The notes under the pieces were generated by a model. The model was not told the origin of the DNA, ran no database searches, and saw only the letters and a program-made list of their open reading frames with translations. Both the position numbers and the translations under genes were made by a program. Of a stretch of DNA of 64,000 nt, positions 9,451 through 51,600 are shown one piece after another (position 1 is the stretch's first letter; every line of letters begins with the position of its first letter). Source of the DNA: Candidatus Omnitrophota bacterium (lineage in GTDB: Bacteria; Omnitrophota; Omnitrophia; Omnitrophales; Aquincolibacteriaceae); contig JAKLFP010000006.1 in the NCBI GenBank assembly GCA_022711115.1, positions 19,699 through 83,698 of the forward strand, read 5' to 3'.

Positions 9451-9471
9451 AATGGTATATTGAATAGTATA
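9451..9471 (+). repeat. 21-bp direct repeat copy 1 (AATGGTATATTGAATAGTATA) immediately upstream of fic
   Basis: 20/21 identical to 10559..10579. A degenerate third copy (aatggcatactgagc) lies at 9430..9444. Confidence 0.6.
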
Positions 9472-9513
9472 TTATTAATGACCGCCGGTTCCAACCTGCA
9501 GAGGAGGAAAATA

Positions 9514-20613: not shown

Positions 20614-21507
20614 TTACTGTCTTTTTTCCAGAGCCAGGAAAATGCCATGGAGAATGGCTTCAGGCCGCGGCGGGCAGCCGGGCACATAAATATCCACAGG
20701 AACCGCACGATCCACGCCGCCCGCCACCGCGTAATTTCCGTCAAACATGCCGCCGCTAATCGCGCAGCTCCCGCAAGCCACCACAAGCTTCGGAGAAGGT
20801 GTTGCCTCGTAAGTTTTAACTAGCGCGAGTTCCATCTGCCGCGTCACAGGACCGGTCACAAGCAGCATGTCCGCGTGTCGCGGAGAAGCCACAAAATGGA
20901 CACCGAACCGTTCCGCGTCATAAATAGGATTGGAAAGATTCACGGCTTCGACTTCGCACCCATTGCACGAACCCGCGTCAACTTCGCGGATATGGAGAGA
21001 TCGGCCGAAAAGTTTTTGAATCTTTTGGCTTAATGACTCGCCGATTTCTTCCAGGGTCAGTTTGTCAGCAAAATCACCCTGCCGGAAGGCTGAGATTTCA
21101 TCCGGTTTTTTTTTGAAGTAAATTTTTTCCGTAGAAACAAAGGCTTTGTCTTTCCGGACATCAGACAAAGCGGAAGATAGTTCATGGCATAATTCTTTTT
21201 TAGTCCGGGCCGCAAGTTCGAATTTCCCTTTGAAGGAGATGGCCTGATACGGACAAGCTGGCTCGCAAAGCCCGCAGAAGATGCAGTCTCCGTAGGAAAT
21301 ATAAAAAGAACGCCTGGCTTCCTTTGCGTGGTCTGCGATCGTTAAGGCCTTGGTCGGGCATTGAAGCACACATTGCCCGCACCGCGTGCATTTGGCCGGA
21401 TCGATCTCAGGCGCGCCGAGAAATCCTTCGGTTGTTTTGGCAGCATGCGGCGCATACGGCAGCGTTGCTTTTCCAACGGCTAAGTTTTTCTTAAGAATCC
21501 TGAACAC
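20614..21507 (-). CDS. fused 2x[4Fe-4S] ferredoxin (HycF/HyfH-like) + NuoB/HycG-like small subunit of group-4 hydrogenase-related complex
   Basis: N-terminal CTRCGQCVLQCP and CIFCGLCEPACP. C-terminal GSCNGCEVE, FVASPRHADMLLVTGPVT, VVACGSCAISGG and YVPGCPPRPE match HycG/NuoB. Confidence 0.9.
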   Translation of the reverse strand: MFRILKKNLAVGKATLPYAPHAAKTTEGFLGAPEIDPAKCTRCGQCVLQCPTKALTIADHAKEARRSFYISYGDCIFCGLCEPACPYQAISFKGKFELAARTKKELCHELSSALSDVRKDKAFVSTEKIYFKKKPDEISAFRQGDFADKLTLEEIGESLSQKIQKLFGRSLHIREVDAGSCNGCEVEAVNLSNPIYDAERFGVHFVASPRHADMLLVTGPVTRQMELALVKTYEATPSPKLVVACGSCAISGGMFDGNYAVAGGVDRAVPVDIYVPGCPPRPEAILHGIFLALEKRQ

Positions 21508-21625
21508 TTAAAACTCCTTTTATTTTTTACCCGGAGGTTTCTGTCATTGCGAGGGTACGCAGTGCCCGAAGCAATCTCAGAGATCACTTCGTCGCTTCGC
21601 TCCTCGTGATGACGAGAAAGCCACC

Positions 21626-23203
21626 TTACCGGTCATTGCCGGCATAAGACAAATTGAAACTTTTATTGATCAAGGGAAAATCCGGTACGATATTTTCCAG
21701 GACCGCGTATTGGATCAAGGGCCAGTTCACAAAAGAGGGTGAATGGATTTTCCAGCGCGTGATTTTCCCTTCACGGTCTGTGGCAATCCAATGAAAACAT
21801 TCCCCGCGCGGAGACTCCACATAACCCAATGCGCTCTTCAGCGGCAAAATCGGCCTCGCCTCACTGCACAAAGGACCTTCGGGCATGGTGTGAAGGGCGT
21901 CATAAATCAGCTTGAACGATTCATAGACTTCTTGGATCTTTACTTTCATCCGACTCTCGACATCGCCTTCCTTGAACACAGGAACCATGAAAAAAAGCTC
22001 TTTATATGCGGCATAAGGATGATCGCGCCGAAGGTCCTGGTCGACGCCGGAAGCGCGCGCGACCGGGCCAACGCCGCCAAGTGTCTCAGCCACTTCCTTT
22101 TTGACTTGGCCTGTGCCTTCAATGCGGTCTACCAGGGAATCCACCTGCCAGAGGATTTGAATGATCGAATCAAAATCCGTTTTAATCTTCTGGATTTCTT
22201 CCAGAAACCTTTGTTTTTGGACTCCAGAAATGTCCTTTCGCACACCGCCCAAAGCGATGACGTTTCTCAGGAGGCGCGTGCCGGCCAGCCGTTCGTTGAT
22301 GCGTAAAAGAGATTCCTTGAGCCGCATAAGCTGGCTTGCGCCAAAACTGAACGCCGCGTCCAGGGAAATCCCGGCAATATCGCTCATGTGGTTGTGAAGG
22401 CGCTCCAGTTCAAGAAAAATAACGCGAAGGAATTGTGCCCGCTCGGGCACTTGAATATCGGCCAGAGTTTCCAGGGCCTGTGCACAGGCGGCGGCATGAG
22501 AAAAAGAATTGTCTCCGGAGATACGCTCCGCAAGGCAAAGGAGATGAGACGGTGATTTTCCTTCGCCTGCTTTTTCCGTGCCTTTGTGGGTGTAAAAGTG
22601 CCGGATCTCGAGCTTCACGATACTTTCGCCGGCCGAGGAAAAACGGAAATGACCGGGTTCGATGATGCCGGCATGAACCGGCCCGACCGGGATTTCGAAA
22701 ATACCTTCTCCTTCCACGCGTTCAAAAATGTATTGGCCGGAAACCCGCGGAATCTTTTGTTGAGATTGAAAATCTTTTTTAAACGGGAAATGGCCTCTGG
22801 GCCAGTCCTCGTGAAACACAAGCGATCTGGGATCCGGGAGGTTTCCCGCGACCAAGCCAAAAAGATCCTGAATCTCACGTTCCTGCCAATTGGCTTGCGG
22901 CAGAAAAGGAGTGACGGAAGGAAACACAGGATCGTTTTCCGGGATCCTGGCTTCAAGGATGATAAAAGAATCCTGCTGCGTATGGGAAAAAACATAAGAA
23001 AGCGTAAAGGCCTTGTTTTCCTTCCGTGTGTCCGAGGCAAAGAGAAAAACAAGGCGCATGGGAAGAAGTCCCGTGAGAAAGCCGACTGTTTTCAGAATCG
23101 CGTCTCGCGGGATAAGCACATGACATTGCTTTTCGGTCCCGCCTTCCAGTTCGCGGATCGTATTCCCGAATTTTTCTTTCAAAGCTTCGCAGACCATTTT
23201 CAT
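21626..23203 (-). CDS. fused NuoC-NuoD / HycE-like large subunit lacking the [NiFe]-binding cysteines (Ehr-type)
   Basis: The VGPVHAGIIEPGHFRF block is conserved. The N-terminal RxCGxCxxxH is replaced by RISGDNSFSH, and the C-terminal DPCxxCxxR by NLSYAGNDR. Confidence 0.9.
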   Translation of the reverse strand: MKMVCEALKEKFGNTIRELEGGTEKQCHVLIPRDAILKTVGFLTGLLPMRLVFLFASDTRKENKAFTLSYVFSHTQQDSFIILEARIPENDPVFPSVTPFLPQANWQEREIQDLFGLVAGNLPDPRSLVFHEDWPRGHFPFKKDFQSQQKIPRVSGQYIFERVEGEGIFEIPVGPVHAGIIEPGHFRFSSAGESIVKLEIRHFYTHKGTEKAGEGKSPSHLLCLAERISGDNSFSHAAACAQALETLADIQVPERAQFLRVIFLELERLHNHMSDIAGISLDAAFSFGASQLMRLKESLLRINERLAGTRLLRNVIALGGVRKDISGVQKQRFLEEIQKIKTDFDSIIQILWQVDSLVDRIEGTGQVKKEVAETLGGVGPVARASGVDQDLRRDHPYAAYKELFFMVPVFKEGDVESRMKVKIQEVYESFKLIYDALHTMPEGPLCSEARPILPLKSALGYVESPRGECFHWIATDREGKITRWKIHSPSFVNWPLIQYAVLENIVPDFPLINKSFNLSYAGNDR

Positions 23204-24672
23204 GAAACCACTCCTCCAGCCACGCGGCTCGCTTCCTGAAGCAGATGCTGCAACGGCCTTGGGATATAAAAACCCATCACCACGATCACGATCATGCCGA
23301 CCACAAGCACACTATCCATGAGAAAACTTTTTGCAGGCATTTCGGTTTTTTCGGTTTCGCCAAAAGTCATCCGGTTCGCTTGCCGGAGGAAACCGGTAAA
23401 GATAAGCGCCAATAAAACAAGCAGAATGGCGCACGGAATAAATTGTTTGGCCAAAAAGCCCGCGCTTAAAATACAGAATTCGCTGAAGAAGACGCTGAAA
23501 GGCGGCATGCCGGCGATGGCGAGAACTCCGAAAAAGAATATCGTTCCCAGAAAAGCGTTTTTGCGGAAAATCCCTTTCACCTTGCTGATCTCTTTGCTGT
23601 GAAAGAAATAGTACAAATGACCGGAAGTGAAAAAGAGCAGGGATTTCGTGAACGCGTGATTCACGATGTGGAGAATCGCGCCGTACAAGCCCAGCGTGCC
23701 GCCAAATCCAAGGCCCACGGCCGCGAGCCCCATATGCTCCACGCTTGAATACGCCAACAAACGTTTGTAATCCGCTTGCTCCATGATAAAAGGTACGGCA
23801 ATGGCCACCGAGAGTACGCCAAAGACAATCAATAGTGTGTCCGAAAATGCTGAATCCGTTGCGACTTTGGTCAGGATATGAAACCGCAAAATACCGAAAG
23901 TCGCGCAGCTCAAAAGCACGCCGGAAAGAAGCGCGCTCACAGGGGCGGGTGCTTGGCTGTGTGCATCCGGCAGCCAGGCATGGAACGGCGCAAGGCCGGC
24001 CTTGGTGCCATAGCCCACAAGAACAAAAATAAACGCAAGCCGGATGATCTGTGGATCCAGATATTTTGCTTTGGCGAGCAGAAAGCTCCAATTAAGTAAA
24101 AGCCCGGTTTCCCCGGATGCGACTTGTTCGACCGCAGAGTAATAGACCAAAATGACCCCAAAAAGCGCGAGTGCGATGCCCACGCTGCAAAGAATCAAGT
24201 ATTTCCACGCGGCCTCGATCGAACTTTTCTTGTCGTCCACATTCACTAAAAATGATGACGCGAGCGTGGTTCCTTCGATCGCTATCCACATCACCCCGAG
24301 ATTATTGGAAAGCACGGTCAGGAGCATGGTGAAAAGAAAGAGATGAAAAAAGAACGCGTAGCGGCGAAGTTTGGCCGGCGGGATGCCGGTCTCGCCTTCC
24401 TTGAAAAGATAACCGCCCGCATAGATCGCGGAAAGCAGTCCCACGCTCGGGATCAAAAGGACAAAAACGGCGGACAAGGCGTCCATCATAAGACTTTCTT
24501 TAAACGCGAATATGCGCGGGCCTGAAAAATTCCCGAAAACAAAAAACCAGGCCCCGATCGCGGACACGGCCGCACCGGCCATAAAGGTCAGACGCGTGGT
24601 CCTTTTGGGACAAGGGACCAGACACAGAAATGCAAAAGCAAGCGGTGTCCAAAGTATGTGATCGATCGTCAT
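23200..24672 (-). CDS. NuoN/NuoM/HyfF-like antiporter-type membrane subunit
   Basis: 490 aa polytopic protein. The GYGTKAGLAPFHAWLPDAHSQAPAPVSALLSG block is typical of the Mrp/NuoLMN antiporter family. Confidence 0.85.
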   Translation of the reverse strand: MTIDHILWTPLAFAFLCLVPCPKRTTRLTFMAGAAVSAIGAWFFVFGNFSGPRIFAFKESLMMDALSAVFVLLIPSVGLLSAIYAGGYLFKEGETGIPPAKLRRYAFFFHLFLFTMLLTVLSNNLGVMWIAIEGTTLASSFLVNVDDKKSSIEAAWKYLILCSVGIALALFGVILVYYSAVEQVASGETGLLLNWSFLLAKAKYLDPQIIRLAFIFVLVGYGTKAGLAPFHAWLPDAHSQAPAPVSALLSGVLLSCATFGILRFHILTKVATDSAFSDTLLIVFGVLSVAIAVPFIMEQADYKRLLAYSSVEHMGLAAVGLGFGGTLGLYGAILHIVNHAFTKSLLFFTSGHLYYFFHSKEISKVKGIFRKNAFLGTIFFFGVLAIAGMPPFSVFFSEFCILSAGFLAKQFIPCAILLVLLALIFTGFLRQANRMTFGETEKTEMPAKSFLMDSVLVVGMIVIVVMGFYIPRPLQHLLQEASRVAGGVVS

Positions 24673-24676
24673 GCCT

Positions 24677-25336
24677 TCATCCTTTCAAAACCGTCATATC
24701 GTCCGCGTCAATGCTTTCAAAAGCGCCGCGGATTTTAAAAACAAAAACACCCATAATCACCACACCCACCAGCGCATCGAAAAAGACCCCTATTTCCACA
24801 AGAAGAGGCATGCCAAACGTAATGGTCACACCCATAAGAAAAAGACCGTTTTCGATGAGGAGCAGTCCGAGGACCTGATTGATCGCCTTTTTGCGGGTCG
24901 TCATCATTAACATGCCGAAAAAAATCGTGGAGACTGCTAGCGGGATAAATTCGCCAAACGAAACCGATTTCAGGACCTTGCCTTCCCCTGTCACATAAAA
25001 GGAGACAAACACGAGCAGCACGGCCAGAAGCAGCGTGAACGGGATGTTGACATAACTTTCGATCTCTTTGCGGATCCCGAGCCGGCGGATAATCCTGAAA
25101 AAGACTTGCGGGATTAAGATGGTTTTCAGAGCCAGTGTCAAGAACGCGGGAATCAACAAGTGCTCTACATGATTTGTTAAAGCAATGAAAGCAGTAATTA
25201 GTGCGAGCAAAAAAGAATGGGTGGCATAAGCGCGAATGCTGGCCCCGATCTGCGGAGCGGCCAGCATCCAAAAGGAAACGATCAAAAGCATCATGCCGAA
25301 AAAGTGAATCAGCGAGGGCACGAATTCCGTGTTCAT
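24677..25336 (-). CDS. HyfE-like small membrane subunit (hydrogenase-4 component E family)
   Basis: 219 aa with about seven TM helices. Its position between the NuoH-like and NuoN-like genes matches the hyf order. Confidence 0.7.
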   Translation of the reverse strand: MNTEFVPSLIHFFGMMLLIVSFWMLAAPQIGASIRAYATHSFLLALITAFIALTNHVEHLLIPAFLTLALKTILIPQVFFRIIRRLGIRKEIESYVNIPFTLLLAVLLVFVSFYVTGEGKVLKSVSFGEFIPLAVSTIFFGMLMMTTRKKAINQVLGLLLIENGLFLMGVTITFGMPLLVEIGVFFDALVGVVIMGVFVFKIRGAFESIDADDMTVLKG

Positions 25337-26283
25337 ACGCCCCTCCCGATGATGAGTTGTCCCAGAAGAGACAAAACGGCCAGGACAAAAGCGACGGCCA
25401 AAAGGTCCGGAGCTCTAAAAAGCCGCAATTTCGCGGAATGAATCTCGATCCAGCCAATCACAAAAGCCAGGAAAAAGATTTTCAATAGATAAAGTCCGAT
25501 GCCCACGCCAAAAGCCGCGAACCCAGACATACCGGAAAAATTCCAAGGAAAGAAAAGATTGGCGAGCAGTGTCAGAAAAATAATCTGTTTGATCTGATGG
25601 CTCCATTCAATCAAAGCCAGATAACGGCCGGAATATTCCAGGATCATGGCTTCGTGAATCATGGTCAGTTCCAAATGTGTGGCTGGATTATCCATCGGAA
25701 TTCGTCCGCTCTCCGCGATGGTGACAATCAAAAGCGCGCCAAACGCCAAGCTCGTAAAAAATAAAATTTGAATGGGTGATTGCCAGGAAAAATACGAAAC
25801 AATCCCGTCAAGCGACAGGCTTTGGGTCCGGAAACTCAAAGAAAAAAACGAGAGAAGAAGTGCCGGCTCCGCAAGCGATGAAAGTGTCATCTCACGGCTC
25901 GACCCCATGCCTCCGAACGTGGTTCCGGTATCCAACGCGGCCAAAGTCAAAAAGAAACGTCCCAGGGCCAGGAGGTAAACAAAAACAATCACATCGCCTG
26001 TAAAACCAAAAAGAGAGACTGCTCCGGACACCGGCGTTAAAGAGGCTGCGCTAAGGACCGACGCAAAGAGCACGAAAGGCATCGCGTGAAAAATCCATGA
26101 TGCGGCTTCCGAGATCACCATATCTTTGTGGAAAAGCTTCCAAAGGTCCGTATAGACCTGCACCGGGCTAGGACCTACACGGTTTTGCGAGATAGCTTTC
26201 ATCTTTTTGATGAACCAGCTGAGTAACGGCGCGAGGGCCATCAGAAAAAGCACTTTGGCGCATGCAAAAAAAATGGAGATCAT
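25333..26283 (-). CDS. HycD/NuoH-like membrane subunit
   Basis: 316 aa with eight TM helices and a formate-hydrogenlyase subunit-4/NuoH-like profile. 4-bp overlaps with both flanking genes. Confidence 0.8.
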   Translation of the reverse strand: MISIFFACAKVLFLMALAPLLSWFIKKMKAISQNRVGPSPVQVYTDLWKLFHKDMVISEAASWIFHAMPFVLFASVLSAASLTPVSGAVSLFGFTGDVIVFVYLLALGRFFLTLAALDTGTTFGGMGSSREMTLSSLAEPALLLSFFSLSFRTQSLSLDGIVSYFSWQSPIQILFFTSLAFGALLIVTIAESGRIPMDNPATHLELTMIHEAMILEYSGRYLALIEWSHQIKQIIFLTLLANLFFPWNFSGMSGFAAFGVGIGLYLLKIFFLAFVIGWIEIHSAKLRLFRAPDLLAVAFVLAVLSLLGQLIIGRGV

Positions 26284-28478
26284 GAGGAATGCCCTCCCCA
26301 GAAAAGAAGAAGGAGAATCAACGTAATAAATATGTAACTGAGGTAGAGTTGAATATGGCCGGTCTGGATGTGTTTGGCTTTTTGTGAAAGACTGGAAATA
26401 AGATTGGCCAAGGGTTTATACACCCATTCATCCACAGGCTGCGTGATCTTTGTTTCAAAGCGTTGGGCAGTGCGAAGCAATTCATGCCCTTCATCTTCCA
26501 GCTCCACGTGCCGGGTCGGCTGATAAAGGAAAGAAAAAATCCTGCGTAACGGTTTGGAATAACCGGTCGCGGAATATTGCATGCGCGGCTCCAGCCGGGG
26601 CATACCGCAATCCCAGCTTGGCCCGATGCGGACCTTTTGTTTCCCCAGGAAGATCCGAAGCAATACCGCGGACCCAAATATGAATCCCAAAAGAATAAAG
26701 GCTAAAAGCAAAGGAGAAAATTGGCTCGCTTTTGATGGGGATATCAAAAAAAGTTTCTGAACAACACTTTCCATCGGAAGATTGACATTTGAAAAGGTAT
26801 TCGTGATTTTCCATAAAATTTTCACAACCCACGGAGCGGACAAGGCAAGCGCCAAACAACTCGTGGCCAGAATCCCCATGCCCAGTTTCATGGAACCGCT
26901 GATTTCATGCGCTCCGGTCGCATGCTTCGAACGCGGCATCCCTAAAAAGCTGATCCCGAAGGCCTTTACAAAACAAGTGGCAGCCAAAGCGCCGGCAAGT
27001 CCAAGCAGCGACGCCAGAACCGGCAAAAAGAAATGCATGCCCGTGCTTCCTGTCTCAATCCCAAGAAGAATCGCAACAAAAGTCATCCATTCACTGACAA
27101 ACCCGTTCAAGGGAGGCAGCGCGGAAATAGCGACTGCGCCTATCAGAAAATACGCGGCCGTCCAAGGCATTTTCTTGATCAAGCCTCCTAGTTGTTCCAT
27201 ATTCCGCGTGTGAGTTCCAGAAAGCACAGCCCCCGCACCAAGGAAAAGGAGACCTTTGAAAACAGCGTGATTCAAGATATGGAAAAGAGCCGCAACCAAC
27301 GCAAAGGCTGCATAAAGGGTTTGCCCCTGTGTTTTAAAAGCAAGACACATGCCGACTCCGAGAAGGATAATCCCGATATTTTCAATGCTGGAAAACGCCA
27401 GGAGCCTTTTTAAATCATGTTCCATTAATGCGTAGAGAATGCCCAGAAGCGTGGAAACAATCGCGATGGCAAGGATCAGATTCCCCCACCATCCGGGTGT
27501 GGCACCCAGAAAATCCAAAAGAAACCGCAAAAACGCATAGATGGCGGTCTTGATCATCACGCCAGACATAAGCGCTGACACATGGCTCGGCGCTTGAGGA
27601 TGCGCCTTGGGCAGCCAGATATGAAGCGGGATGATCCCGGCCTTAGTGCCGAATCCCAGAAGTGCCGAAAAGAAAATAATATTTTTAAAAACAGGCGAAA
27701 GAAAGCCCGCGCCGGCACGGAATGAGTCGAATGAAAAAGAGCCGGTATGAATATAAAGAAGCCAGAAGGCAGTCGAGATGAACACGGTCCCGATATGCGT
27801 CATGACCAGATAAAGAACCCCGGCTGATCGCGTCTCCGGTTTTTCATGTTCAAAAATCACAAGAAAATAGGAAGCCAGGGACATGAGTTCCCAAAAAAGG
27901 AGAAAATAAAAGGCGTTCCGGATCGTGACCACGAGAAGCATGGCCAGGATGAAAAGGTTATAGAAAAAACCCAAAAGGGCGATGTTTTTCTTGTCCTGGC
28001 ATCCATTTTCTTTTGACAAAAGGTTGCCAGGACTATCCTGACTTTTATTTTCTTTTTCTTTATGGTAGTCAGGATTGCCCCAATTTCCACACTGTGGAAA
28101 TTGATTGGTATTGGGACTAGTCCAATTAACCTTTGAATTTTTTGATGGAGAATTGGATTTGCCCTGATATTCACGGGTATAACCGATCGCAAAAAGAGAG
28201 GTGGCAAGCGAAAGGAAAGAAATCACAAAAAGAAAGAAGGCGGAAAAGAGATCCGCTTCCAACCGGAGAGGACCGACCGGAAGGCTTCCCGCAATTTCAA
28301 GCACCCAGGATTTCCCGGTCAAAAGGATATAAAGTGCAAAAACAACACCTGCCGTTCCTGCCAACGAGGCTAAAAGATGCGTCGAACGGTTCGCCTTTTC
28401 TCCGTGTTGTTCAAAAAGAAAGCCCGCGATTGCCCCTAAGATATGAAGAGAAATTTGCGCAAAAAAGAAAAATGCCAT
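26280..28478 (-). CDS. HyfB/HycC/NuoL-like membrane subunit with about 65-aa hydrophilic insertion
   Basis: The GFGTKAGIIPLHIWLPKAHPQAPSHVSALMSGVMIKTAIYAFLRF block matches the NuoL family. An unusual hydrophilic loop (YTREYQGKSNSPSKNSKVNW...) sits after helix 3. Confidence 0.9.
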   Translation of the reverse strand: MAFFFFAQISLHILGAIAGFLFEQHGEKANRSTHLLASLAGTAGVVFALYILLTGKSWVLEIAGSLPVGPLRLEADLFSAFFLFVISFLSLATSLFAIGYTREYQGKSNSPSKNSKVNWTSPNTNQFPQCGNWGNPDYHKEKENKSQDSPGNLLSKENGCQDKKNIALLGFFYNLFILAMLLVVTIRNAFYFLLFWELMSLASYFLVIFEHEKPETRSAGVLYLVMTHIGTVFISTAFWLLYIHTGSFSFDSFRAGAGFLSPVFKNIIFFSALLGFGTKAGIIPLHIWLPKAHPQAPSHVSALMSGVMIKTAIYAFLRFLLDFLGATPGWWGNLILAIAIVSTLLGILYALMEHDLKRLLAFSSIENIGIILLGVGMCLAFKTQGQTLYAAFALVAALFHILNHAVFKGLLFLGAGAVLSGTHTRNMEQLGGLIKKMPWTAAYFLIGAVAISALPPLNGFVSEWMTFVAILLGIETGSTGMHFFLPVLASLLGLAGALAATCFVKAFGISFLGMPRSKHATGAHEISGSMKLGMGILATSCLALALSAPWVVKILWKITNTFSNVNLPMESVVQKLFLISPSKASQFSPLLLAFILLGFIFGSAVLLRIFLGKQKVRIGPSWDCGMPRLEPRMQYSATGYSKPLRRIFSFLYQPTRHVELEDEGHELLRTAQRFETKITQPVDEWVYKPLANLISSLSQKAKHIQTGHIQLYLSYIFITLILLLLFWGGHSS

Positions 28479-42623: not shown

Positions 42624-45600
42624 TTATGCGGCTTGTTCGATGACTTTTCGAGTTTCAGCGGCAATGCTGATATTTTCAATGAATGCGAGAATGCCACTCA
42701 CAGGCTGGATGCCTTGCGGTATTTGTTTTCTTTCAAGGATCGTGTTTAGGGCACCAAGCAAGGCAAAGGCTTTTTGTCTTTCATCAACATCGTGATAAAC
42801 CAAAAGAGTACGGTCGGCATGTCCGGATTTAGAAACAACCGGTGCAAGACTCTCCAGATTGGCTGTCCCGCTTGAACTCATATCGTAAACAAGAGCGCGT
42901 TCTGTTGTTTTCTGAATAAATCCCGCGATCTCTGTTTTCTCAGATATGACGACAAGGTTCACCCCCCGACCCATCACCCCTTTTGCGTCACGCATTTTCA
43001 TGATCTTTTTGATCAATGCCTGTTGAAATCTCGTCAGCTCTGTTTGCGCGGCATGGGGCACCACGATCTGCACCGGTGCGAATTTATTCCTGGTCATGAA
43101 CTGCATCAACACCTGCAGTGACGGATCCTCAAGAGACGGAATATTCTTAAAAATGACCGCGATCCTGTCCGCACCGGTTTCCGCTTTTGCTTTATTGGAA
43201 AGCAACGCAAGATAATTCCGTTGCCGAGTCAAATGAGGGATCGCATAAGCGTTGGGTATCAGTTCAGCCAAAACCCTATTCAAGATCTCTTGCCCCATCG
43301 CCAACGCCGAACTCGTCCGAAAGACACCTTCTGCCGCTTTTGTTGCTACTTGTTTTTCAGATTCAGAAACCTGTGTAACGAGCGGCGCGGATACGGCGGC
43401 AGAAGTTTGAGGCTTCTGCACGCCGCTCCGCAACTGCGCTTCGTCGAGAATTTTGTGTGTTGTTCGTATTTCAGAACGTTGCGAGGGAGCGGTAGTGGAA
43501 GCATCTTGCTTCATACCACCAACTCCCTGCGCTTCGTCGAGAATTTGAAAATCCGATCTCTTTCCTATTTTTTTCCGGCCATTGAGCAGATCATGGAGAA
43601 AATGTTTTTCAAGGTTTGCAAGAAAAGCCGCGTGTTTGTCCTGAGAATGCTGCAAATCTTTGAATTTTTGTTCTGCTTCCTGATTTAAAACTTCGAGACG
43701 TTCTTGGGTCCATTCATTTTTGACTGAACCATCAGGATTTAGATAGGGTTTCAGAAATTCTTTTCTATAATCCGGAATGGAGATACCGTAACTCACATCA
43801 AAAACAACGCCGTTTTCTTCCAGGACATTTTGATCCGAAATAAAAAGGATATTCTTATCGCCATCGAGCACCACAGCGTCGCCTTCCTTTAATCGCTGCC
43901 CATTCTTGAAAATGATTCCTTGGTCTTTGCCTGTCAGGTCCCACCGAGAGACTTCGAGATTGATAAGTGATGGAATTCCAGAGAGGCGGGTCAAAACAGC
44001 CTCATGGGAAGAGCTATTTCCATAGCTGGTAATCAATCCTGAATCCGGATAATTGAAAAGAAGCGTCAGCGCTTGTTCCTGATTGCCCGGATGAGAAACA
44101 AAAACAACGGGTTTTTTCTGGGCTATAAGCTGTTCCATTCGATCCCGATTCCATGCGAGTTGCCCCTGCAAAGCGCCAGGGGTCGATGCCAAACCACGCG
44201 TCAGGGGTGTTGCGATAATAGGGTCTTTGACTTTATAAAGTTTTCTCGATCTTAACCGTTCTTGAACTTTTTCGATGCGCGGGATGGCGAGGCGCTCTGA
44301 AATTTTTCCTTTCGTTAATTGCTCACGAAGAAAAGCGATTTCTGCCTGGGGAGAGAAATTCATTTTGCGTGTTTGTGTAAAATACAATTTTCCGCCGCTC
44401 ACGACAAATTCGAATTCCTGAGGGCCGACTGCTTCCTCCAGTTTTTTCCTGGCCTCTAAAAGCTGCTGGAAAATGGCCGGGGCTTCCTGCTCAAGCTCCT
44501 TGATATCACGACCCGCTTCACCACCTGTCATCAACTCATCGCCGGCAGCATTTTCAAGATAACGTCCGAAAAGAATGTCCTGATTGGTATTCGGATCTCT
44601 TGTTGAAATAACGCCTGAAAAATAAAGAAGGAGCTTCCTCTCGTTGCGACGCGGCGAGTTGGGATCACGATGAGGATCTTGCCCACTGACCCACCGCTGA
44701 ATAATCAAAGGTAAATCAAATTTGTCCGGGATCCTTTCCCTCGCTCTGAATTTTTTAGCGGCTTCTGATTCCCATGCCTGGGCTGTTTCCTGGAGTGTCC
44801 CCTTAAAATCATAGCGGACGCGACGGCTGCTTAAGATGCCCGGCATCGACTGCTTGGGATTGCTTCGGATAATCAATGCCTCTTCGCGGGGATAGGACTC
44901 CCACCATTCGGGAAAATGAACCCGGATACCCGCGTGACGCAATTGCTGATCGATAAAAGGAAAATATTTTTTTGCTTCCTCGTTCGGAAGCCCGACCAGT
45001 CGGGCAACAAGATCTTCTGAAAGCACAATGCCCGGAGGATAAGGAAGCCCCAGTTTTTCAAAAACCAAAAAACCTGCTTCTTTGTTGCCCATACCAGGCT
45101 GATAGGGCCCTTTCCCCAGTTGCCTTGTCCCTGCTTTGACTCTTGCTTCGATATCGGAAAATTCGTTTAGGAGGATCCTTCGCATGAGAAGATCCCCTGC
45201 GCGGCAATAAAGCGACATGAGATCGCCGAATTCTTTAGGAACAACCCAATAATCTCTCGCGACTCCGTTCATGTAATGCCGGGTCGGTTCCCAGTTTTCA
45301 ATGCCTCGGTAATACAAGAAGTAAGCATTGGGAATGCCTAATTTTTCTTTAAAAAAGACAAGTCGAGAATCTTCTGTGATCTTCGTCGTTCCTTGTTGAA
45401 GAGTTCCCAGGAATCGCCTGTCATCTTCTAAATCATCCAACCGGGCATCCCATTCAGCAGTTAAAATTTTTACCATCGAGGGCTCTTCGGCTTGCGCCGG
45501 TCGAGGCAGATCCTGCTTTACATTTTGATACACTTCAGCCAGCAATTTTAGATCCAAATCCGGATTAATCTTGATGGCGGCCTGATAAACAGCACGGAAC

Positions 45601-48600
45601 TTTTCATCCGGAACTTCCAGGATGCCAAGAGCTTTTATTTGCTGTTCCAAAGTACCCTTGCGCTTTTCAACCTCTGAACGCATTTCGGATCTTTGTTGAG
45701 GCATTTCGATGCGGAGATCTCGAATTTTACGAAATAACGGCCCATATACAATTTTTTGTGCCACAAAAGCCAAAAACGCCAGCGCTATGCTTCCCTTAAG
45801 GGCAAAGATCCAAGGGTGATTGTCATTAAATAGAATTTTTGAAGCCAAAACAACGGCCAGTCCGGCCCATCCCCCGGCCCAACCGGCTCTTTTTAATATG
45901 TGACGTTTAAGCAATCCCAAAATTTCGTATCGAGCATCATTCAGATTGTCCAGATCCGGCTGAATCAAATCAGCGAAAACCCCTTGTCTTTCCGAGGATA
46001 ACTTGGCTAAGTAGATTTGAATTTGTTCCCAAGAAGTGACGGCTTCTTGAAATTGATCTATGATGGCGGAAAGGCTTGTGTCCTCATCTTCGAAAAAAAC
46101 AGAATCTCTGCCGTCGATTTTGGTTTTTAACGTTCGGACCATCGTTTGAAATTTTTGAAGTTCCCAACGGATTTCACCTTCAGGCATGTCTTCTTCGTCT
46201 AAGTGCCGACGATTCGGGCTTTTCGTCCGCATTTCCGAACGAGGCATAAAATTTATTTTAAATCCGTATGCATTCAAGCGCTCAATGATATTATCTTTCC
46301 CTTTCGCGCCTATGTCATAAAGGTGATTTACCTGTTCCTTGGATAATGCCCGGAGCTCACCGATGGTTCTAATACCATTCCGATGAAGAGCATTGGCATT
46401 GCGCACATCCAATCCGAGAAGCTCAATCTTGTCATTATCGGTCAGATGCTTTTCTCGTTCGCTAAGCCCAGGCAATCCATTGACCGCCAAACGGTTACGA
46501 ATATGCCGCAATGTTTTTGGCGCCGCTTTTCCTAAACGCGAAAGTTTGTCTATGGAAACCGCCAGCAACTCGCTGATCGGCGACATACTGCTTATTCCAA
46601 GCCGAAATAAAACTTTCATGGCCTTAGGATTTAACCGCAAATACCGGACCGGATGTTCCGGTGCGAGGGGCCTTCCGGCTTTATAGATCTCGTAATAGCG
46701 TTCCATTTTCCACAAAGCGTTTCGAAACCGGAACCAAGCGGTTTTTGCCCCGCTGATTCCTTCTTCGCGGGCAAATTGCGCAATGGATAAGGGCGTTTCA
46801 GCCAAAAAGAGCCTCCAGATCATATGTTTTTGCCTATCCGTTAAAATCTCCTGGGATCGCACGGCAAAATTTAAATAATCCAAGCTTCTCAAAAAAGGAT
46901 ATTCTTCTTGAAGGCGAGCTATAAAATTCGTTTCGCGATTTGACGACGATCCCGACCGCATCTCGGCACGGTTTTGTGGAATCTCCGAACCTCTTTGAAG
47001 GGATGAGGCAGAACGGGCTGGAGATGGAATACTTCTATTACCAATGCGCTGATCGCCTTGGTAATAAACCAATGTTTCGCCGGCAATCACCGCAGAAATC
47101 GGGCGGGGCGTGCCCCGGACGGTTGCGCCAACTTGACGTTTTAGCAATTCGTTGGCAGAAACAGAGGTCACAGGCTGCCAATCCCCCGCCTTAAAAATCC
47201 TTTGTTTTTGATTTCTTACTTTATCTTCAACAAAAACTTCCGAGGCAAAAAACTGCTGACAGAGATTCATCACCTCAGGTTCCAGAATGCCCCAAACCAC
47301 CATTGAAAACCGCTGCTCTGCAGCGCGCCGGCTAAGGGCATTCAAAATAGTTTTGGCAATCCCGCGACCGTAATATTGCTTGTAGGAATGATCCTCCTTA
47401 CTGCCTATGGGGTAAAAATTAATAACGGTCAGTCGCCTAAAAAAAGGAAGTGTCATTTCCTTAAAGGTGACTTTTCTTTCGGTGTGAGTCTGGCCTTCAA
47501 TAAAGACTTCCACCTCATAGTATTTTTCAAAAAAATCCACATTCTCTTTTCGCAAAACCAATGTCACATCTTCATGGCCGTAAAGATTTTTCAGTTCAAT
47601 CCTTTCAAATTCTCCCCTCCCGTCCCTGCCGTAAGTATGTCTTTCCCACGTCACTTCAGGATTTTTTCCATCATGTACTTCAACCAACCTTCCGAGCCGG
47701 TCAAAAACATAAATATTTCCCGAGGCTGGATTAAACGGATCCTGGACCTGCCATTTATTACGAGCAAGGCCTGAAATCTTTTTTAAAAGTGTTAAAACAG
47801 AAAAATTACGCAGTTCTGAACGAGCCCGCGGTATTTCCTTCCCGGAAAGAAGAGAGCCAAGTCCCGCCGTATGAATCACTCGTTGCAATTGTCTCGCTCT
47901 TTCTTCAGTTTGATCGGGCAGCCATTCCGCAGCATAAAAAAAGTAAAGCGTACTGACAACAGCGATTATGCTGCTGATGATCGTTCCGAGCACAAACGGC
48001 AGTATTCCGGAAACAACGAAGAACCCGCTCGACACAAAAAGCGGGATAGCAACCGCCATGAGATTCCTCTTTATTTTCTTTTCTGTCTTGATGGAAAGGT
48101 CATTCAATATGCGAACATAACGCTTCGCTAATTCAATGAAACTCGGCGCCCCTTCTCTTGTGTTCGCCATTTGACCCCACGCGAAGAGACCCTCTCCCAA
48201 TTGTTTCCATTTCTCTTCATTGTAATAGTCCCTCGGAAGACGGCGATGTATGTCATTCGCTGTTAAATGCACTCCCCCGCGTTCCTCAACCATACTCAAG
48301 ATTTTATCAATCACGCCCAAGGAGAATATTTCGGTTTTTTTATTTTTAAGCAACCACTGAAGCGCTTCAATGCCCTCTTCTGCAATGATAGCTTGATCTT
48401 GTTTTTGAACGTTTCGCATCTCAGAACGGACTGGTTGAGAGCGTGGGACAAGTCTTAGCTTAGGCCTTTCTTGAAGCTGTTTGTTCCAATCGGAAAATAC
48501 TTCGAAAATTTTGGTTTGGGCTGCTCCATAAAGTTCGCGACGTGCTTTGTTATTTCCGTCCTGCATTGCGCTCATTTGTTCACGATCAAGCGCAAGATCG

Positions 48601-51600
48601 CTGATAACATCCCCCAAAACCTCGGGAGTAAAATCAGTCCCCAATGTCAGAACCGCTCCATGATCCGCATAAGCTTTTACCGCCATGGCGCTGTCGGTTT
48701 CTCGCTTCCCGGAAAGATCATTATTTGTGAAAGCACCGGTAATGACCGGCGCGTAAGATTCGGCGAGATTGTGAGCGGGATTGGTTCCGTTCTGAAGAAG
48801 TGTATTACCGTAGACCGCCAACCTTGCGGCTTTTAAAAGATTGGTCAGTTCCCCTGTCGAATTTAAAACAAGGATCCAGGCATTTTGATTCTTTTGGCTT
48901 GTGGTTTTACGAAGGCGATATGGAATTCCGGCATTTTGCCAGGTTTCTTCGAATTTTTTCTCGTTAAGCAAACTCGGAGCCACAACAATGGGATATTCTT
49001 CGAGATCCAAAAGTTTGTTCTGATAAATGTGTTTGAGAGTCGCCACCACAAAAGGAAGTTCGTCGGCATGGATATTCGCAAAGACAATGGGTGGATTTTT
49101 CAACCCGAATTCTTTAAGGACGGCTTGCGTATCAACCGTCAATATGGCTTCCAGATATTTGGCGGGTTGGTGGGTATGAAGCGTGATCTTTGCAGGAGGA
49201 CTTCGGGAACGAAGGCGAATCCAGGGATGATCCGGAAGAGTATTATCAGCAGTTAAGTAAAACGTGAACGAATTGAGCGGATCATTTTTCTCCTCATCTG
49301 CATTAAAAAACACCACACCTTCTTTATCCTGAAATGCTTTTTTAATAGAAGTTGCATTTTCGTTTCCATGGATGATCTTTATTAAAACGCCAGGCCAATG
49401 CTCGCGAATTATTTCGGTTAACATGCCGGCGGTATTTGAAAATTTTTCCGTGTTCTTCGAAACCCAAATCGACACAAAATCCGGCGTTTTTCCACGCAGC
49501 TCAGAGCGTTTTTGGTCACCCGGCGAAGTCGTAACACGAACCGGCATCCCAAGTTGATCGTGCTGGTAAACAATGAGCGTGACCTTGGCGCCCTGTGTTA
49601 TGGGGCTTGTACCTATCAATTCAAAACCGCCGAAGCCGTCTGACTTCCAAGCTTTCCCTTTGGATTCAATAAGGCCATCTTGAGCCTCGGTGCCGAATAT
49701 CCTGAATCCGTTTCCGTGAATACTGATAATTTCTTTTTTATGTTGAAGCAAAAAAGGAATATCGGAAATACCAGGCCCCGAATCCTTTCCGACCAGTTCA
49801 ATACCGGTTAACCCATCTGAGGTGTTGACCTGACTGATCTCAATCGAACCACCTTGCCCGTGTTTATGGATATTCAAAGCAAGCTCATGGACAAGATTGC
49901 CAAGTCTGTTCTGTTCTGCCATAAAATAATCCCGCTCAGCCGCAATATGCCGAACCTCGGTTTCTATATCCGGCACTTGCAACCGGTCAGGAATATTTTT
50001 ATCGATGATAAATGTCCGGATTTTCTCGCGGGAAACAATTCTAAAAATACCCGTTGGCGCCCGCATTTCGGAACGAATGGACGGCAAAGAATCTTGATCC
50101 CCTGAGAATGGCTCCTGAAAAACGCCCGAAAATGTAGAAAGCGTGATCATTGTTTTACCCTGTTCGCGAATAGAATCCATTTGAACATGGACCGGAAAGT
50201 CTATTTCATAAAACTCCGGCTGAAAACTATCAAAACCTAAATTTTTAAATTGTTTTTTGACTGTTCCGAGCAAAGAAGAGCTCCCGAGATTCAAAACCAC
50301 GATCATGACGTTGGAACTGCCGTTATTTCTGACGCTTGCCTTGAAAACAAGGGCAAAATCATTCCCCGCCTCCAGCAATAGGGCCTTGGTCATGTCGATA
50401 TCAATTTTAGTATCCGCGTTCAACCCATTCACAAACCGGTTCAACGCCATTCTGTCCGGCACATCCAACAGATAACCTTTGTGGATTCCCGCAATAAGCG
50501 GCATTGTCGCCTGATACTCCAAAGTTATAGAGGTGCGCAGTTCCGAGCGGGTTTGTTGCGATTTTTGTTGCCGGTAATAGGTCTTGATCAACACGCGGTA
50601 AAACTGGCGGAAGGCTTCCGCTGTATTCTTATCCTCCGCAGGTCTTAATTTCAGCGTCTCTCTGAAAATGTTTTCGGTCGCATCAAGAGCATCTAAATGT
50701 CTTAAAAAGGACTGTCCGACGTAAGCGATATGAATCACCGTGAATTTGTCACGTAATGAAAGATCCCGAAGAGGGTATCCAGCATCAGCAAATAAGGTCA
50801 GAATCTGCTCAAAAATACGAAGACCATCATCCCCTGCCGCAGCAACAGCTGCCGCCGCGTTAAGAATCCGAATTTTATCTTTAAACTGCATGCCGCTGAG
50901 ACTGTTTTTGCTGATGGCTAATTTTTCTTCTAGAAGCCCCAGTAAGGCTTGGAAAAGAAGGTACCCGGCCTGTCCGTTAATCACGGCTGGATAAACAGCT
51001 CTTAGCAAACGGTTTTTTTCTGTGTCCGTTTTCAAGTCAGGAAATCTTAGCCCGAAAGTAACCGCCAATTCTTCAAGAATTCTCCGAAAAACCTCCAGAT
51101 TTTTCCCTTGATTACCTGCTATGTGATAAGCAGCTCTCAAGAATTGAATGGCCTGTTCTGCATCCGCGACGGGCTTTTCTTTAGACGATAGTGTGAAAAC
51201 TTTATTAATCCATCGGAGGATAATCCTGAAGGCATCGAATCCCGCATCCCCCTCCGAAGCTACTTGACTAGCCGCGGTCGTCATCTGAATCATTTGCGAG
51301 GGAGGCAGATTATGTCTTTCTTCCGAACCAAGATGAAAGTAATCTCCAATAAAGCGAAGCGCCTTCGCGTAACGCTCATATTCTTCTTTGCCATGTTGCG
51401 AAAGACTATGGATCGCGCTAATAAGATCGATTTTTTGAAAAGTTTCGAGCTTTTCCGCAATCCCGTTACCACGTCCCCAATAGTGGACTGTGAATGCTAA
51501 TATGTCTCGAAAAACAGTGAAACCTTCTTCTCTGCCTTGGGTTACTACAGAAGCTGCTATAATCAGTTTCATTTTCTGTTTTACTTCCATGCGACGAACA

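What the first reader, a model, noticed from the sequence alone, without database searches (positions are those of the whole stretch)
43920..45400. PEP synthase/PPDK-like ATP-grasp plus phosphohistidine swivel module near the C-terminus of the giant protein
The GLPYPPGIVLS and GGKLYF-TQTRKM blocks, plus a catalytic-His loop GNSSSHEAVLTRLSGIP, reproduce the nucleotide-binding and swivelling phosphohistidine domains of PEP-utilising dikinases and rifampin-phosphotransferase-like enzymes. No TIM-barrel PEP/pyruvate domain follows.

This suggests an ATP-dependent phosphotransfer onto an unknown substrate. The substrate could be a small molecule, or another domain of the same giant protein.
Basis: partly seen in the sequence, partly recalled or inferred. 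Interest (0 to 1): 0.5.

Follow-up and report, generated by a model that had tools for sequence, protein, structure and literature searches.

The report
Barrel-less PPDK-type phosphohistidine cassette in Omnitrophota giant protein
Near the end of a 7,976-residue Omnitrophota protein sits a self-contained enzyme unit derived from pyruvate phosphate dikinase that keeps the ATP-binding and phosphate-carrying histidine parts, has lost the pyruvate-binding part, and so probably passes phosphate from ATP to a still unknown acceptor.

Summary
The three motifs lie in-frame on the minus strand of a giant ORF that runs off the window. The full protein is NCBI HOW59847.1, 7,976 aa, from a Candidatus Omnitrophota MAG.

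- **Homology to PPDK:** NCBIfam TIGR01828 E=6e-35, family profile vs PDB 1DIK E=5e-35, Foldseek vs 1KBL E=1e-24. Pfam itself nearly fails: there is no PPDK_N hit, and PEP-utilizers scores 22.0 bits against a 23.1 cut-off.
- **No PEP/pyruvate barrel** is present anywhere in the ORF or the window.
- **Family:** the unit belongs to an almost exclusively Omnitrophota family of about 55 cluster representatives. All PPDK catalytic positions are conserved: K22, R92, G101, E323, Q335, R337 and the catalytic His (50/50).
- **Differences from PPDK:** it lacks the helical insertion. It adds a ~170-aa N-terminal domain with no significant match to a solved structure, present in 1–4 copies in relatives. 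It also adds an 80-aa helical tail with a near-invariant NLEKHxxH motif.
- **Portability:** no other segment of the giant protein travels with it.
- **Closest functional precedent:** M. tuberculosis VadK, a barrel-less PPDK that autophosphorylates its His.

Verdict: a new variant of a known kind; the acceptor is unknown.

In passing: the giant protein consists of about 22 cassettes separated by a recurrent R-[SA]-E-[MVIL]-R pentapeptide, 19 copies in the window against 0.14 expected. This may be a processing site.

The parts
42624..64000 (-). Giant ORF; runs off the window's right edge. The complete protein is 7,976 aa (P0121 / HOW59847.1). The window holds its C-terminal ~7,124 codons.
45678..45692 (-). 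Upstream boundary pentapeptide RSEMR (ORF aa 6049-6053)
   Evidence: flanking residues are disordered in the model (module residues 1-8 have pLDDT<50)
45117..45626 (-). Family-specific N-terminal alpha/beta domain (ORF aa 6071-6240). It occurs in 1-4 tandem copies in relatives and has no significant match to a solved structure.
44352..45116 (-). ATP-grasp nucleotide-binding domain (aa 6241-6495), lacking PPDK's helical insertion (PPDK residues ~108-199). Catalytic equivalents: K6252 (K22), R6324 (R92), G6333 (G101), E6474 (D321), E6476 (E323), Q6488 (Q335), R6490 (R337).
44238..44351 (-). Two-helix inter-domain linker (aa 6496-6533), equivalent to PPDK residues ~340-389
43815..44237 (-). Swivelling phosphohistidine domain (aa 6534-6674) with the loop YGNSSSHEAVLTRLSGIP
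   Evidence: (2FM4 TMt 0.78)
44004..44006 (-). Codon of the predicted catalytic His, H6611 (= PPDK H455; P0121 H7517)
   Evidence: 50/50 conserved
43581..43814 (-). Family-specific helical tail (aa 6675-6752) in the place of the PEP/pyruvate barrel. It ends in NLEKHFLHDLL (N6741 90%, H6745 94%, H6748 98% conserved).
43479..43580 (-). Non-conserved, predicted-disordered spacer (aa 6753-6786)
   Evidence: (pLDDT<50)
43464..43478 (-). Downstream boundary pentapeptide RSEIR (aa 6787-6791)
42627..43463 (-). Last cassette of the giant protein (aa 6792-7070). It has no family hit and does not co-occur with the PPDK-like module in relatives, so it is not a barrel and not a fixed partner.

Best explanation
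**What it is.** ORF aa 6054-6786 is a complete, portable enzyme cassette derived from pyruvate phosphate dikinase. Its layout is:
- a family-specific N-domain;
- an ATP-grasp domain without the helical insertion;
- a two-helix linker;
- a swivelling phosphohistidine domain (H6611);
- a family-specific helical tail carrying an HxxH motif.

There is no PEP/pyruvate barrel.

**Proposed mechanism.**
1. Inferred from homology: MgATP binds in the ATP-grasp cleft (K6252, R6324, E6474, E6476, Q6488, R6490).
2. Inferred from homology, with experimental precedent in the barrel-less PPDK relative VadK: H6611 attacks the beta-phosphate, giving a pyrophosphoryl- and then phosphoryl-histidine.
3. Inferred from the fold: the His domain swivels on its helical linkers away from the nucleotide site.
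4. Hypothesis: the phosphoryl group is delivered to an acceptor that cannot be pyruvate. The acceptor site would be formed either by the family-specific parts (the HxxH tail that replaces the barrel, and/or the repeatable N-domain) or by a separate partner protein.

**Context.** In the window protein the cassette is one of about 22 unrelated cassettes of a membrane-anchored multi-enzyme giant protein with no signal peptide. It is bounded on both sides by the R-[SA]-E-[MVIL]-R linker peptide.
For: **Homology and fold:** (PPDK is the best match by sequence, profile and structure).

**Catalytic residues conserved across 53 diverged family sequences:** K22 39/39, R92 42/42, G101 43/43, E323 48/48, Q335 46/48, R337 47/48, D321 as Glu in 44/48, H455 50/50.

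**No barrel in the ORF or the window:**

**Family-specific conserved elements:** tail with N6741/H6745/H6748 at 90-98%; N-domain in 1-4 tandem copies, confidently folded.

**Self-contained unit:** only this segment of the giant protein recurs in relatives. It occurs in proteins from about 700 to 7,976 aa. Its C-terminal edge is fixed at NLEKHFLHxLL, followed by a variable spacer and then either a linker peptide or a different C-terminal domain.

**Precedent:** M. tuberculosis VadK (ATP-binding plus His domain only) autophosphorylates His422 with ATP and Mg2+, and H422A abolishes this (PMC13400623).
Against: - No biochemistry exists for this family, and the acceptor is unknown.
- Pfam models barely or do not detect the domains.
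- The helical subdomain is missing. From memory of the PPDK literature it carries R135, so the Pi/PPi half-reaction may differ.
- T453 is Ser here.
- The tail has no detectable relative, so its role is conjecture.
- About 45% of family members that start with Met have signal-peptide-like N-termini, often with no TM segment before the module. That would place an ATP-dependent enzyme where ATP is not expected.
Confidence: 0.78

Rival explanations
1. It is an ordinary pyruvate phosphate dikinase domain that interconverts pyruvate and PEP. This is how PPDK-type domains on Omnitrophota giant proteins were read by West-Roberts et al. 2023.
For: PPDK is the best hit by sequence and fold. [quoted passage not shown]
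Against: - The PEP/pyruvate TIM barrel (PF02896) is absent from the cassette, from the other ~7,000 residues and from the window.
- The match to TIGR01828 stops at model position 509 of 865 and scores 120 bits against a cut-off of 843.
- The position of the barrel is taken by an 80-aa helical tail conserved in the family.
Confidence: 0.03
2. It is a VadK-like regulatory phospho-histidine protein. It autophosphorylates with ATP and then regulates or phosphorylates partner proteins, without a small-molecule acceptor site of its own.
For: It has the same two-domain core as VadK and hits the VadK-type model NF004531 at E=3e-31. VadK autophosphorylates and binds methylcitrate-cycle enzymes. A repeatable N-domain and a helical tail fit protein-protein recognition.
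Against: - It scores 108.6 bits against the 456-bit cut-off, so it is not a VadK orthologue.
- VadK-type proteins are reported from actinobacteria.
- No conserved partner domain or neighbouring gene was found.
- The tail shows no HPt/DHp similarity.
Confidence: 0.3
3. It is a small-molecule or polymer phosphotransferase, working like rifampin phosphotransferase, flavonoid/antibiotic phosphotransferases or glucan-water dikinase. The N-domain, repeatable like a binding module, would hold the acceptor.
For: - RPH is the second-best structural class (Foldseek E=4e-9).
- All known barrel-less relatives of this kind use a third domain for the acceptor.
- The N-domain is always directly upstream of the ATP-grasp and occurs in 1-4 copies.
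- Omnitrophota giant proteins are rich in carbohydrate-active domains.
Against: - The domain order differs from RPH (ATP-grasp, substrate domain, His domain).
- A good part of the family lacks a detectable N-domain: profile matches start at about position 190.
Confidence: 0.25
4. It is a catalytically dead structural remnant that serves only as a scaffold in the giant protein.
For: Sequence is very diverged from PPDK (about 25% identity). Pfam models fail. The helical subdomain and the barrel are lost.
Against: Every catalytic position is conserved at 92-100% across members that are only 30-57% identical overall. That pattern is typical of purifying selection on activity.
Confidence: 0.05

Closest known systems
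Pyruvate phosphate dikinase (EC 2.7.9.1; Clostridium symbiosum PPDK, PDB 1DIK/1KBL; NCBIfam TIGR01828)
   Same: - ATP-grasp nucleotide-binding domain with the same catalytic residues.
- Helical linkers.
- Swivelling phosphohistidine domain with the G-x-x-[ST]-S-H loop.
- Best hit by sequence, profile and fold.
   Different: - No PEP/pyruvate TIM barrel.
- No helical insertion (PPDK residues ~108-199).
- Extra N-terminal domain.
- Extra HxxH helical tail.
- A 20-25-aa variable loop inserted before the strand equivalent to PPDK 250-258.
- About 25% identity, 120 bits against a cut-off of 843.
- Embedded as a cassette in multi-enzyme proteins.
VadK (Mycobacterium tuberculosis Rv1127c; NCBIfam NF004531), a barrel-less PPDK derivative (PMC13400623)
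   Same: Consists of the ATP-binding and phosphohistidine domains without the barrel. VadK shows experimentally that such a truncated PPDK still autophosphorylates its catalytic His with ATP and Mg2+.
   Different: - Independent lineage: 108.6 bits against a cut-off of 456.
- VadK is a free-standing protein (apo mass about 50.5 kDa by MS) reported from actinobacteria.
- Whether VadK has an N-domain or an HxxH tail was not compared here, because the VadK sequence was not retrieved.
- The VadK partners (methylcitrate-cycle enzymes) have no counterpart identified here.
'Short' PPDKs without the helical insertion (e.g. P0175, 762 aa)
   Same: The match also runs from about residue 100 straight to model position 199 of TIGR01828, so the helical insertion is missing.
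   Different: P0175 keeps the barrel and passes the PPDK cut-off (964 bits). The Omnitrophota cassette does neither.
Rifampin phosphotransferase (RPH, PDB 5HV1/5FBS) and related ATP-grasp / swivel-His phosphotransferases (PigC/RedH, PEP synthase)
   Same: The same two catalytic domains are used to move the beta-phosphate of ATP via a His to a non-pyruvate acceptor.
   Different: - Much more distant: Foldseek E=4e-9; NCBIfam PigC and PEP-synthase hits score only about 15 bits (E about 0.003-0.005).
- Different domain order.
- The acceptor-binding domains are unrelated.
PPDK_N-annotated regions of Omnitrophota 'Archaeovorin' / multi-enzyme giant proteins (West-Roberts et al. 2023, bioRxiv 10.1101/2023.11.21.568195; 10.64898/2026.06.07.730766)
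   Same: Same phylum and the same kind of host protein. PPDK_N is listed among the 20 most frequent domains on those giants.
   Different: Those reports give only a Pfam label and read it as pyruvate/PEP interconversion. The barrel-less architecture, the added domains, the conserved catalytic set and the cassette boundaries are not described there.

Membership tests
Pyruvate phosphate dikinase (TIGR01828 equivalog) | ATP-grasp nucleotide-binding domain with K22, R92, G101 loop, D321/E323, Q335, R337 | tested here: met
   All are present in the window protein and conserved at 92-100% in the family; D321 is Glu.
Pyruvate phosphate dikinase (TIGR01828 equivalog) | Central swivelling domain with catalytic His in a T-S-H loop | tested here: met
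   H6611 aligns with H455. The loop is S-S-H. His is conserved 50/50.
Pyruvate phosphate dikinase (TIGR01828 equivalog) | C-terminal PEP/pyruvate-binding TIM barrel (PF02896) | tested here: not met
   There is no hit in the cassette, the ORF or the window. The model match ends at position 509 of 865.
Pyruvate phosphate dikinase (TIGR01828 equivalog) | Score at or above the curated cut-off (843.45 bits) | tested here: not met
   120.5 bits.
Pyruvate phosphate dikinase (TIGR01828 equivalog) | Helical insertion subdomain of the nucleotide-binding domain (residues ~108-199) | tested here: not met
   The profile alignment runs contiguously from 1DIK residues 88-107 to 200-514. The insertion is also absent in some true PPDKs (P0175), so this feature alone is not decisive.
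Pfam PPDK_N (PF01326) / PEP-utilizers (PF00391) | Score at or above the gathering threshold | tested here: not met
   PPDK_N gives no hit at E<=10. PEP-utilizers scores 22.0 bits against 23.1. Relatives carry only 'faint' precomputed PF01326 hits.
VadK-type barrel-less PPDK (NF004531) | ATP-binding plus phosphohistidine domains only, no barrel | tested here: met
VadK-type barrel-less PPDK (NF004531) | Score at or above the curated cut-off (456 bits), i.e. orthology | tested here: not met
   108.6 bits.
VadK-type barrel-less PPDK (NF004531) | ATP/Mg-dependent autophosphorylation of the catalytic His | not testable with these tools
   Needs purified protein. The precedent is in PMC13400623.
Rifampin phosphotransferase family | Domain order ATP-grasp, substrate-binding domain, C-terminal His domain | tested here: not met
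   The His domain follows the ATP-grasp directly, as in PPDK. RPH matches only at Foldseek E=4e-9.
Omnitrophota multi-enzyme giant proteins ('Archaeovorin-type') | Omnitrophota origin, a multi-kiloresidue polypeptide tiled with unrelated enzyme domains, TM anchors | tested here: met
   - NCBI label is Candidatus Omnitrophota.
- Uridine-kinase-like, GNAT, HAD-like, RNAP alpha-CTD-like and PPDK-like segments.
- TM candidates at P0121 aa 6164, 6183 and 6914 by a hydropathy scan.

The most novel reading that the evidence does not exclude
The giant protein may be a polyprotein of effector cassettes that are released by cleavage at the R-[SA]-E-[MVIL]-R sites. The logic would resemble that of MARTX toxins.

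In that reading, the barrel-less PPDK cassette is an exported or delivered effector. In about 45% of family members it sits behind a signal-peptide-like N-terminus. It would use the ATP of a prey or host cell to phosphorylate or pyrophosphorylate a target there, with its novel N-domain and HxxH tail providing target recognition.
Probability: 0.1. Interest if true: 0.85.

Novelty: new variant of a known kind. Interest (0 to 1): 0.5.

Why it matters
**It corrects a published reading.** PPDK-type domains on Omnitrophota giant proteins were read as pyruvate/PEP interconversion. Here the unit has no pyruvate site, so it must do something else with the ATP-derived phosphoryl group.

**It defines a new family.** The family is phylum-restricted and has about 55 representatives at 50% clustering. 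It is a barrel-less dikinase derivative with two new conserved elements. Together with VadK, this suggests that losing the barrel is a recurrent route from metabolic dikinase to kinase or phospho-carrier.

**The cassette boundaries matter for the giant proteins.** The boundaries found while delimiting the unit, the RSExR peptides, give a concrete and testable hypothesis for where these proteins might be cut or docked. West-Roberts et al. state explicitly that this information was missing.

Tried and rejected
1. **Pfam as the decisive test.** It fails or is sub-threshold, so I relied on NCBIfam, PDB and fold searches instead.
2. **Tail as an HPt/DHp-like phospho-acceptor.** A profile of 31 tails finds nothing in PDB or Pfam (best E about 0.2, spurious). 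The idea has no support, though it is not excluded structurally.
3. **N-domain homologues via the word-indexed search.** None were found. A local jackhmmer search over the held sequences found them only inside family members.
5. **Another segment of the giant protein as a fixed partner or substrate.** Rejected: only the PPDK-like segment recurs in relatives.
6. **RSExR as a DNA-level repeat or recombination site.** Rejected: synonymous positions vary freely.
7. **Selection on the linker from a close orthologue.** P0272 is 100% identical, so it is uninformative.
8. **A cis protease.** The 'HSHP...PS' JAMM-like motif (ORF aa 2383-2394) has no HMM support, and no peptidase family hits anywhere in the ORF.
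9. **Anti-phage defence models (PADLOC).** No hit.
10. **The 876-aa gene plus P0001 in L001 as one broken gene.** They are in the same frame but separated by two stop codons and a strong hairpin, so they are probably separate genes.
Full report
**1. Observation**

- GLPYPPGIVLS at ORF aa 6263-6273 (window 45018-45050)
- GGKLYFTQTRKM at aa 6481-6492 (44361-44396)
- GNSSSHEAVLTRLSGIP at aa 6606-6622 (43971-44021)

They belong to a giant ORF ending at 42624. Its frame is still open at the right edge of the window. The full protein is in public collections as P0121 = NCBI HOW59847.1. It is 7,976 aa and 100% identical over the 7,070 aa that follow the first in-window ATG. It comes from a 'Candidatus Omnitrophota bacterium' MAG and is named only 'DNA-directed RNA polymerase subunit alpha C-terminal domain-containing protein'. 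Window-ORF residue n equals P0121 residue n+906.

**2. Is it a PPDK-type ATP-grasp plus swivel-His unit?**

PPDK_N gives no hit even at E<=10. PEP-utilizers scores 22.0 bits, below its gathering score of 23.1. Every other line of evidence is decisive:
- NCBIfam TIGR01828 (pyruvate, phosphate dikinase): E=5.8e-35, covering model positions 210-509 of 865. The barrel-less actinobacterial type NF004531 scores E=3.2e-31.
- phmmer against PDB finds only PPDKs at significant E-values: 2R82 E=6e-20, 1DIK E=3e-19. GNSSSH aligns with GGMTSH, so H6611 corresponds to the catalytic His455.
- A profile of the four closest sequences raises this to E=5.4e-35. It also shows that the family runs contiguously through 1DIK residues 88-107 (the R92/G101 loop) and then jumps to residue 200. 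PPDK's helical insertion subdomain is therefore missing.
- An AlphaFold2 model of aa 6051-6787 has mean pLDDT 80.1. It matches PPDK structures best (1KBL E=1.2e-24). Rifampin phosphotransferase is a distant second (E=3.7e-9). The isolated PPDK phosphoryl-carrier domain 2FM4 superposes with TMt 0.78.

No PEP/pyruvate barrel (PF02896) is detected in the cassette, in the rest of the ORF or in any other gene of the window.

**3. Relatives and conservation**

The word-indexed search found only three close relatives, followed by canonical PPDKs at about 25% identity. The exhaustive profile search found many more.
- About 55-60 cluster representatives have a match that extends through the family-specific tail.
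- They sit in proteins of about 700 to 7,976 aa, including P0137 (6,726 aa), P0149 (6,836), P0129 (4,015) and P0169 (3,462).
- Of the ten loci found in species-representative genomes, six are titled Omnitrophota/Omnitrophica, including Candidatus Aceula lacicola and Candidatus Zapsychrus exili.
- The other four titles are 'uncultured bacterium' (three) and 'uncultured Planctomycetales bacterium' (one).
- P0003 carries a Taylorbacteria label.

In an alignment of 53 family sequences the PPDK catalytic positions are conserved as follows:

| PPDK residue | Window-ORF residue | Conservation |
|---|---|---|
| K22 | K6252 | 39/39 |
| R92 | R6324 | 42/42 |
| G101 | G6333 | 43/43 |
| D321 | E6474 | Glu in 44/48 |
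| E323 | E6476 | 48/48 |
| Q335 | Q6488 | 46/48 |
| R337 | R6490 | 47/48 |
| H455 | H6611 | 50/50 |

T453 is Ser in 37/50. The conservation argues for an active enzyme rather than a remnant.

**4. What the unit contains beyond PPDK**

Column conservation reveals a tail after the swivel domain, at aa 6675-6752. It is modelled as helices and ends in 'aF-aNLeKHflH-L'. N6741 (90%), H6745 (94%) and H6748 (98%) are nearly invariant. The tail occupies the place of the barrel. It has no detectable relative in Pfam or PDB sequences.

Upstream of the ATP-grasp lies a ~170-aa alpha/beta domain at aa 6071-6240.
- It occurs in 1-4 tandem copies directly before the ATP-grasp in relatives: four in P0122 and L002, three in P0127 and P0003.
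- Modelled alone it is confident (pLDDT 89.5, pTM 0.80).

The module's C-terminal edge is sharply defined. After NLEKHFLHxLL comes a non-conserved spacer of 9-38 residues. It is followed either by the linker peptide and an unrelated next cassette, or by a C-terminal 'GGIDL' domain.

Only this segment of the giant protein recurs in the relatives (67 hits). The one exception beyond it is a uridine-kinase-like segment shared with L002 and P0137, plus one methyltransferase-like segment shared with L005. The unit is therefore portable and self-contained. That argues against another fixed domain of the same protein being its substrate.

**5. Mechanism**

*Shown here:* the fold, the domain order, the presence and conservation of all residues that bind MgATP and carry the phosphoryl group in PPDK, and the absence of the pyruvate site.

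*Inferred from established PPDK chemistry:* ATP binds in the ATP-grasp cleft. The His attacks the beta-phosphate and ends as phospho-His. The His domain then swivels on its helical linkers to a second site. That a PPDK reduced to these two domains can still do the first half is shown experimentally for M. tuberculosis VadK. VadK gains +80 Da with ATP and Mg2+, and H422A abolishes this (PMC13400623).

*Hypothesis:* the acceptor is not pyruvate. It is recognised by the family-specific tail and/or N-domain, or it is a partner protein. I cannot discriminate between a protein acceptor (VadK-like), a small molecule or polymer (RPH- or glucan-water-dikinase-like logic), or water.

*An unresolved difficulty:* by an explicit hydropathy rule, 21 of 47 family members that start with Met have signal-peptide-like N-termini, against 0 of 116 canonical PPDKs. 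Often no TM segment lies between that N-terminus and the module. The window protein itself has no signal peptide. It has TM candidates before the cassette (P0121 aa 6164, 6183, 6914), which fits the 'TM-only, cytoplasmic-face' class described for Omnitrophota long proteins.

**6. Comparison with what is known**

PPDK_N is already listed among the most frequent domains of Omnitrophota giant proteins. There it was read as interconverting pyruvate and PEP. For this protein that reading is contradicted by the missing barrel.

The unit is not a member of the PPDK equivalog (120 bits against 843) nor of the VadK type (109 bits against 456). It is a more diverged offshoot. Loss of the helical insertion is not unique to it, because a true PPDK with a barrel (P0175, 964 bits) also lacks the insertion. 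I file the unit as a new variant of a known kind: a barrel-less PPDK derivative with two added conserved elements, almost exclusive to Omnitrophota, used as a cassette.

**7. Context noticed while delimiting the unit**

The giant ORF contains 19 copies in the window (21 in P0121) of the pentapeptide R-[SA]-E-[MVIL]-R. Shuffling predicts 0.14 copies, with a maximum of 3 in 2,000 shuffles. The copies are spaced 158-835 aa apart, with one pair only 15 aa apart. The PPDK-like cassette lies exactly between two of them, RSEMR at aa 6049 and RSEIR at aa 6787.

- **Protein-level constraint.** Codons vary at synonymous sites, so the constraint is on the protein. However, the first Arg is CGT in 13/19 and Ser is never AGY.
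- **Disordered flanks.** The residues around the two boundary peptides are predicted disordered.
- **Specificity.** The same peptide, mostly as RAE[LMVI]R, recurs in other Omnitrophota giant ORFs: L002 x9, P0137 x11, P0169 x5, and also P0124/L006 and L005. It is absent from others (L004, L008, L009, P0149) and from 105,623 residues of canonical PPDKs.
- **Cassette order differs.** In L005 the cassette after the linker is homologous to one that is N-terminal in the window protein.
- **No protease found.** No protease domain was detected in the ORF.
- **Apparently unreported.** Neither Omnitrophota giant-protein preprint mentions such a motif. One states that cleavage points are unknown. A literal text search found nothing relevant.

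A processing or docking site is the obvious hypothesis, but nothing here shows cleavage.

**8. Verdict**

- The finding is a new variant of a known kind.
- Interest is moderate.
- The linker peptide deserves its own follow-up.

Noticed in passing
window 43464-62711 (-): 19 sites, e.g. 62697-62711, 61731-61745, 60936-60950, 59634-59648, 57900-57914, 57855-57869, 57297-57311, 56229-56243, 54252-54266, 53040-53054, 50535-50549, 50061-50075, 49494-49508, 48414-48428, 47808-47822, 46956-46970, 46227-46241, 45678-45692, 43464-43478: A recurrent pentapeptide R-[SA]-E-[MVIL]-R separates domain-sized segments of the giant protein.
- 19 copies occur in the window against 0.14 expected; P0121 has 21.
- The constraint is at the protein level: synonymous codons vary.
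- The flanks of the two copies bounding the PPDK-like cassette are predicted disordered.
- It is shared as RAExR by some other Omnitrophota giant ORFs (L002, P0137, P0169, P0124, L005) and absent from others.
- It may be a processing or docking site of a polyprotein.
- It is not mentioned in the two Omnitrophota giant-protein preprints.
   Followed up: partly
window 63836-64000 (-): The giant ORF runs off the window. The real protein is 7,976 aa (HOW59847.1). NCBI names it only after its RNA polymerase alpha-CTD-like segment. Two ENA assemblies call it at 7,994-7,997 aa.
   Followed up: yes
family members P0122-P0169; not in the window protein: 21 of 47 complete members of the PPDK-like family start with a signal-peptide-like N-terminus, against 0 of 116 canonical PPDKs. 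Often no TM segment lies before the module. An ATP-dependent enzyme predicted to be exported is unexplained.
   Followed up: partly
L001 141-16909: In the Omnitrophota MAG MBPbin6 the relatives are separate large genes.
- The three genes with complete N-termini (1,088, 876 and 1,394 aa) share a signal peptide plus a conserved N-terminal domain ('...VNLSPYE...').
- Four genes (1,211, 1,088, 900 and 1,394 aa) end in a ~50-aa C-terminal 'GGIDL/F ... GL-PVI' domain; the 876-aa gene does not, and P0001 (900 aa) has no signal peptide or N-terminal domain.
- Different enzyme modules sit in between: uridine-kinase-like, PPDK-like, and a second divergent ATP-grasp plus 'GDSDMH' swivel unit.
- The flanking domains are uncharacterised.
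   Followed up: partly
L001 9935-9993: A perfect 27-bp hairpin (-39.8 kcal/mol, z=-10.6) straddles the stop codon of the 876-aa gene, immediately upstream of the P0001 start. The two genes are in the same frame, separated by TAA and TGA.
   Followed up: partly
window 46272-46448 (-): An RNA polymerase alpha-subunit C-terminal-domain-like (helix-hairpin-helix) segment lies inside the giant protein (Pfam RNA_pol_A_CTD E=3.4e-9). It is odd company for metabolic-enzyme cassettes.
   Followed up: no
window 61080-61643 (-): A uridine-kinase/PRK-like P-loop cassette (NCBIfam udk E=9e-13). Homologous cassettes are present in L002 and P0137 giants (30% identity, E about 4e-37); a similar P-loop motif is seen by eye in the first ORF of L001.
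   Followed up: partly
window 56655-56690 (-): 'HSHPQENPAPPS' resembles the JAMM/MPN+ metalloprotease motif, but the Asp is not in register. The segment has no Pfam hit at E<=1.
   Followed up: yes
window 50550-53039 (-): An ~830-aa segment (ORF aa 3600-4429) appears by eye to consist of ~48-aa helical repeats ('...RLITAAYEV...G..AF...'). It was not analysed with tools.
   Followed up: no
window 43464-62711 (-), first and second codons of the linker: Within the linker the first Arg uses CGT in 13/19 sites (gene-wide 20%). Ser is never AGY (gene-wide 32%). This is consistent with S/A interchange by single TCN/GCN changes; the CGT bias is unexplained.
   Followed up: no
P0129 (4,015 aa family member): It has no RSExR but carries a recurrent 'SGARLA' hexapeptide (5-6 copies). 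This may be a different lineage-specific linker.
   Followed up: no
window 20614-28478 (-) and 9460-10551 (+): There is an Ech/Mbh-type membrane-bound hydrogenase / complex-I-like operon (Oxidored_q6, Complex1_49kDa/30kDa, NADHdh, two Proton_antipo_M). A Fic-domain protein lies elsewhere in the window. This is ordinary chromosomal context with no evident link to the giant gene.
   Followed up: no
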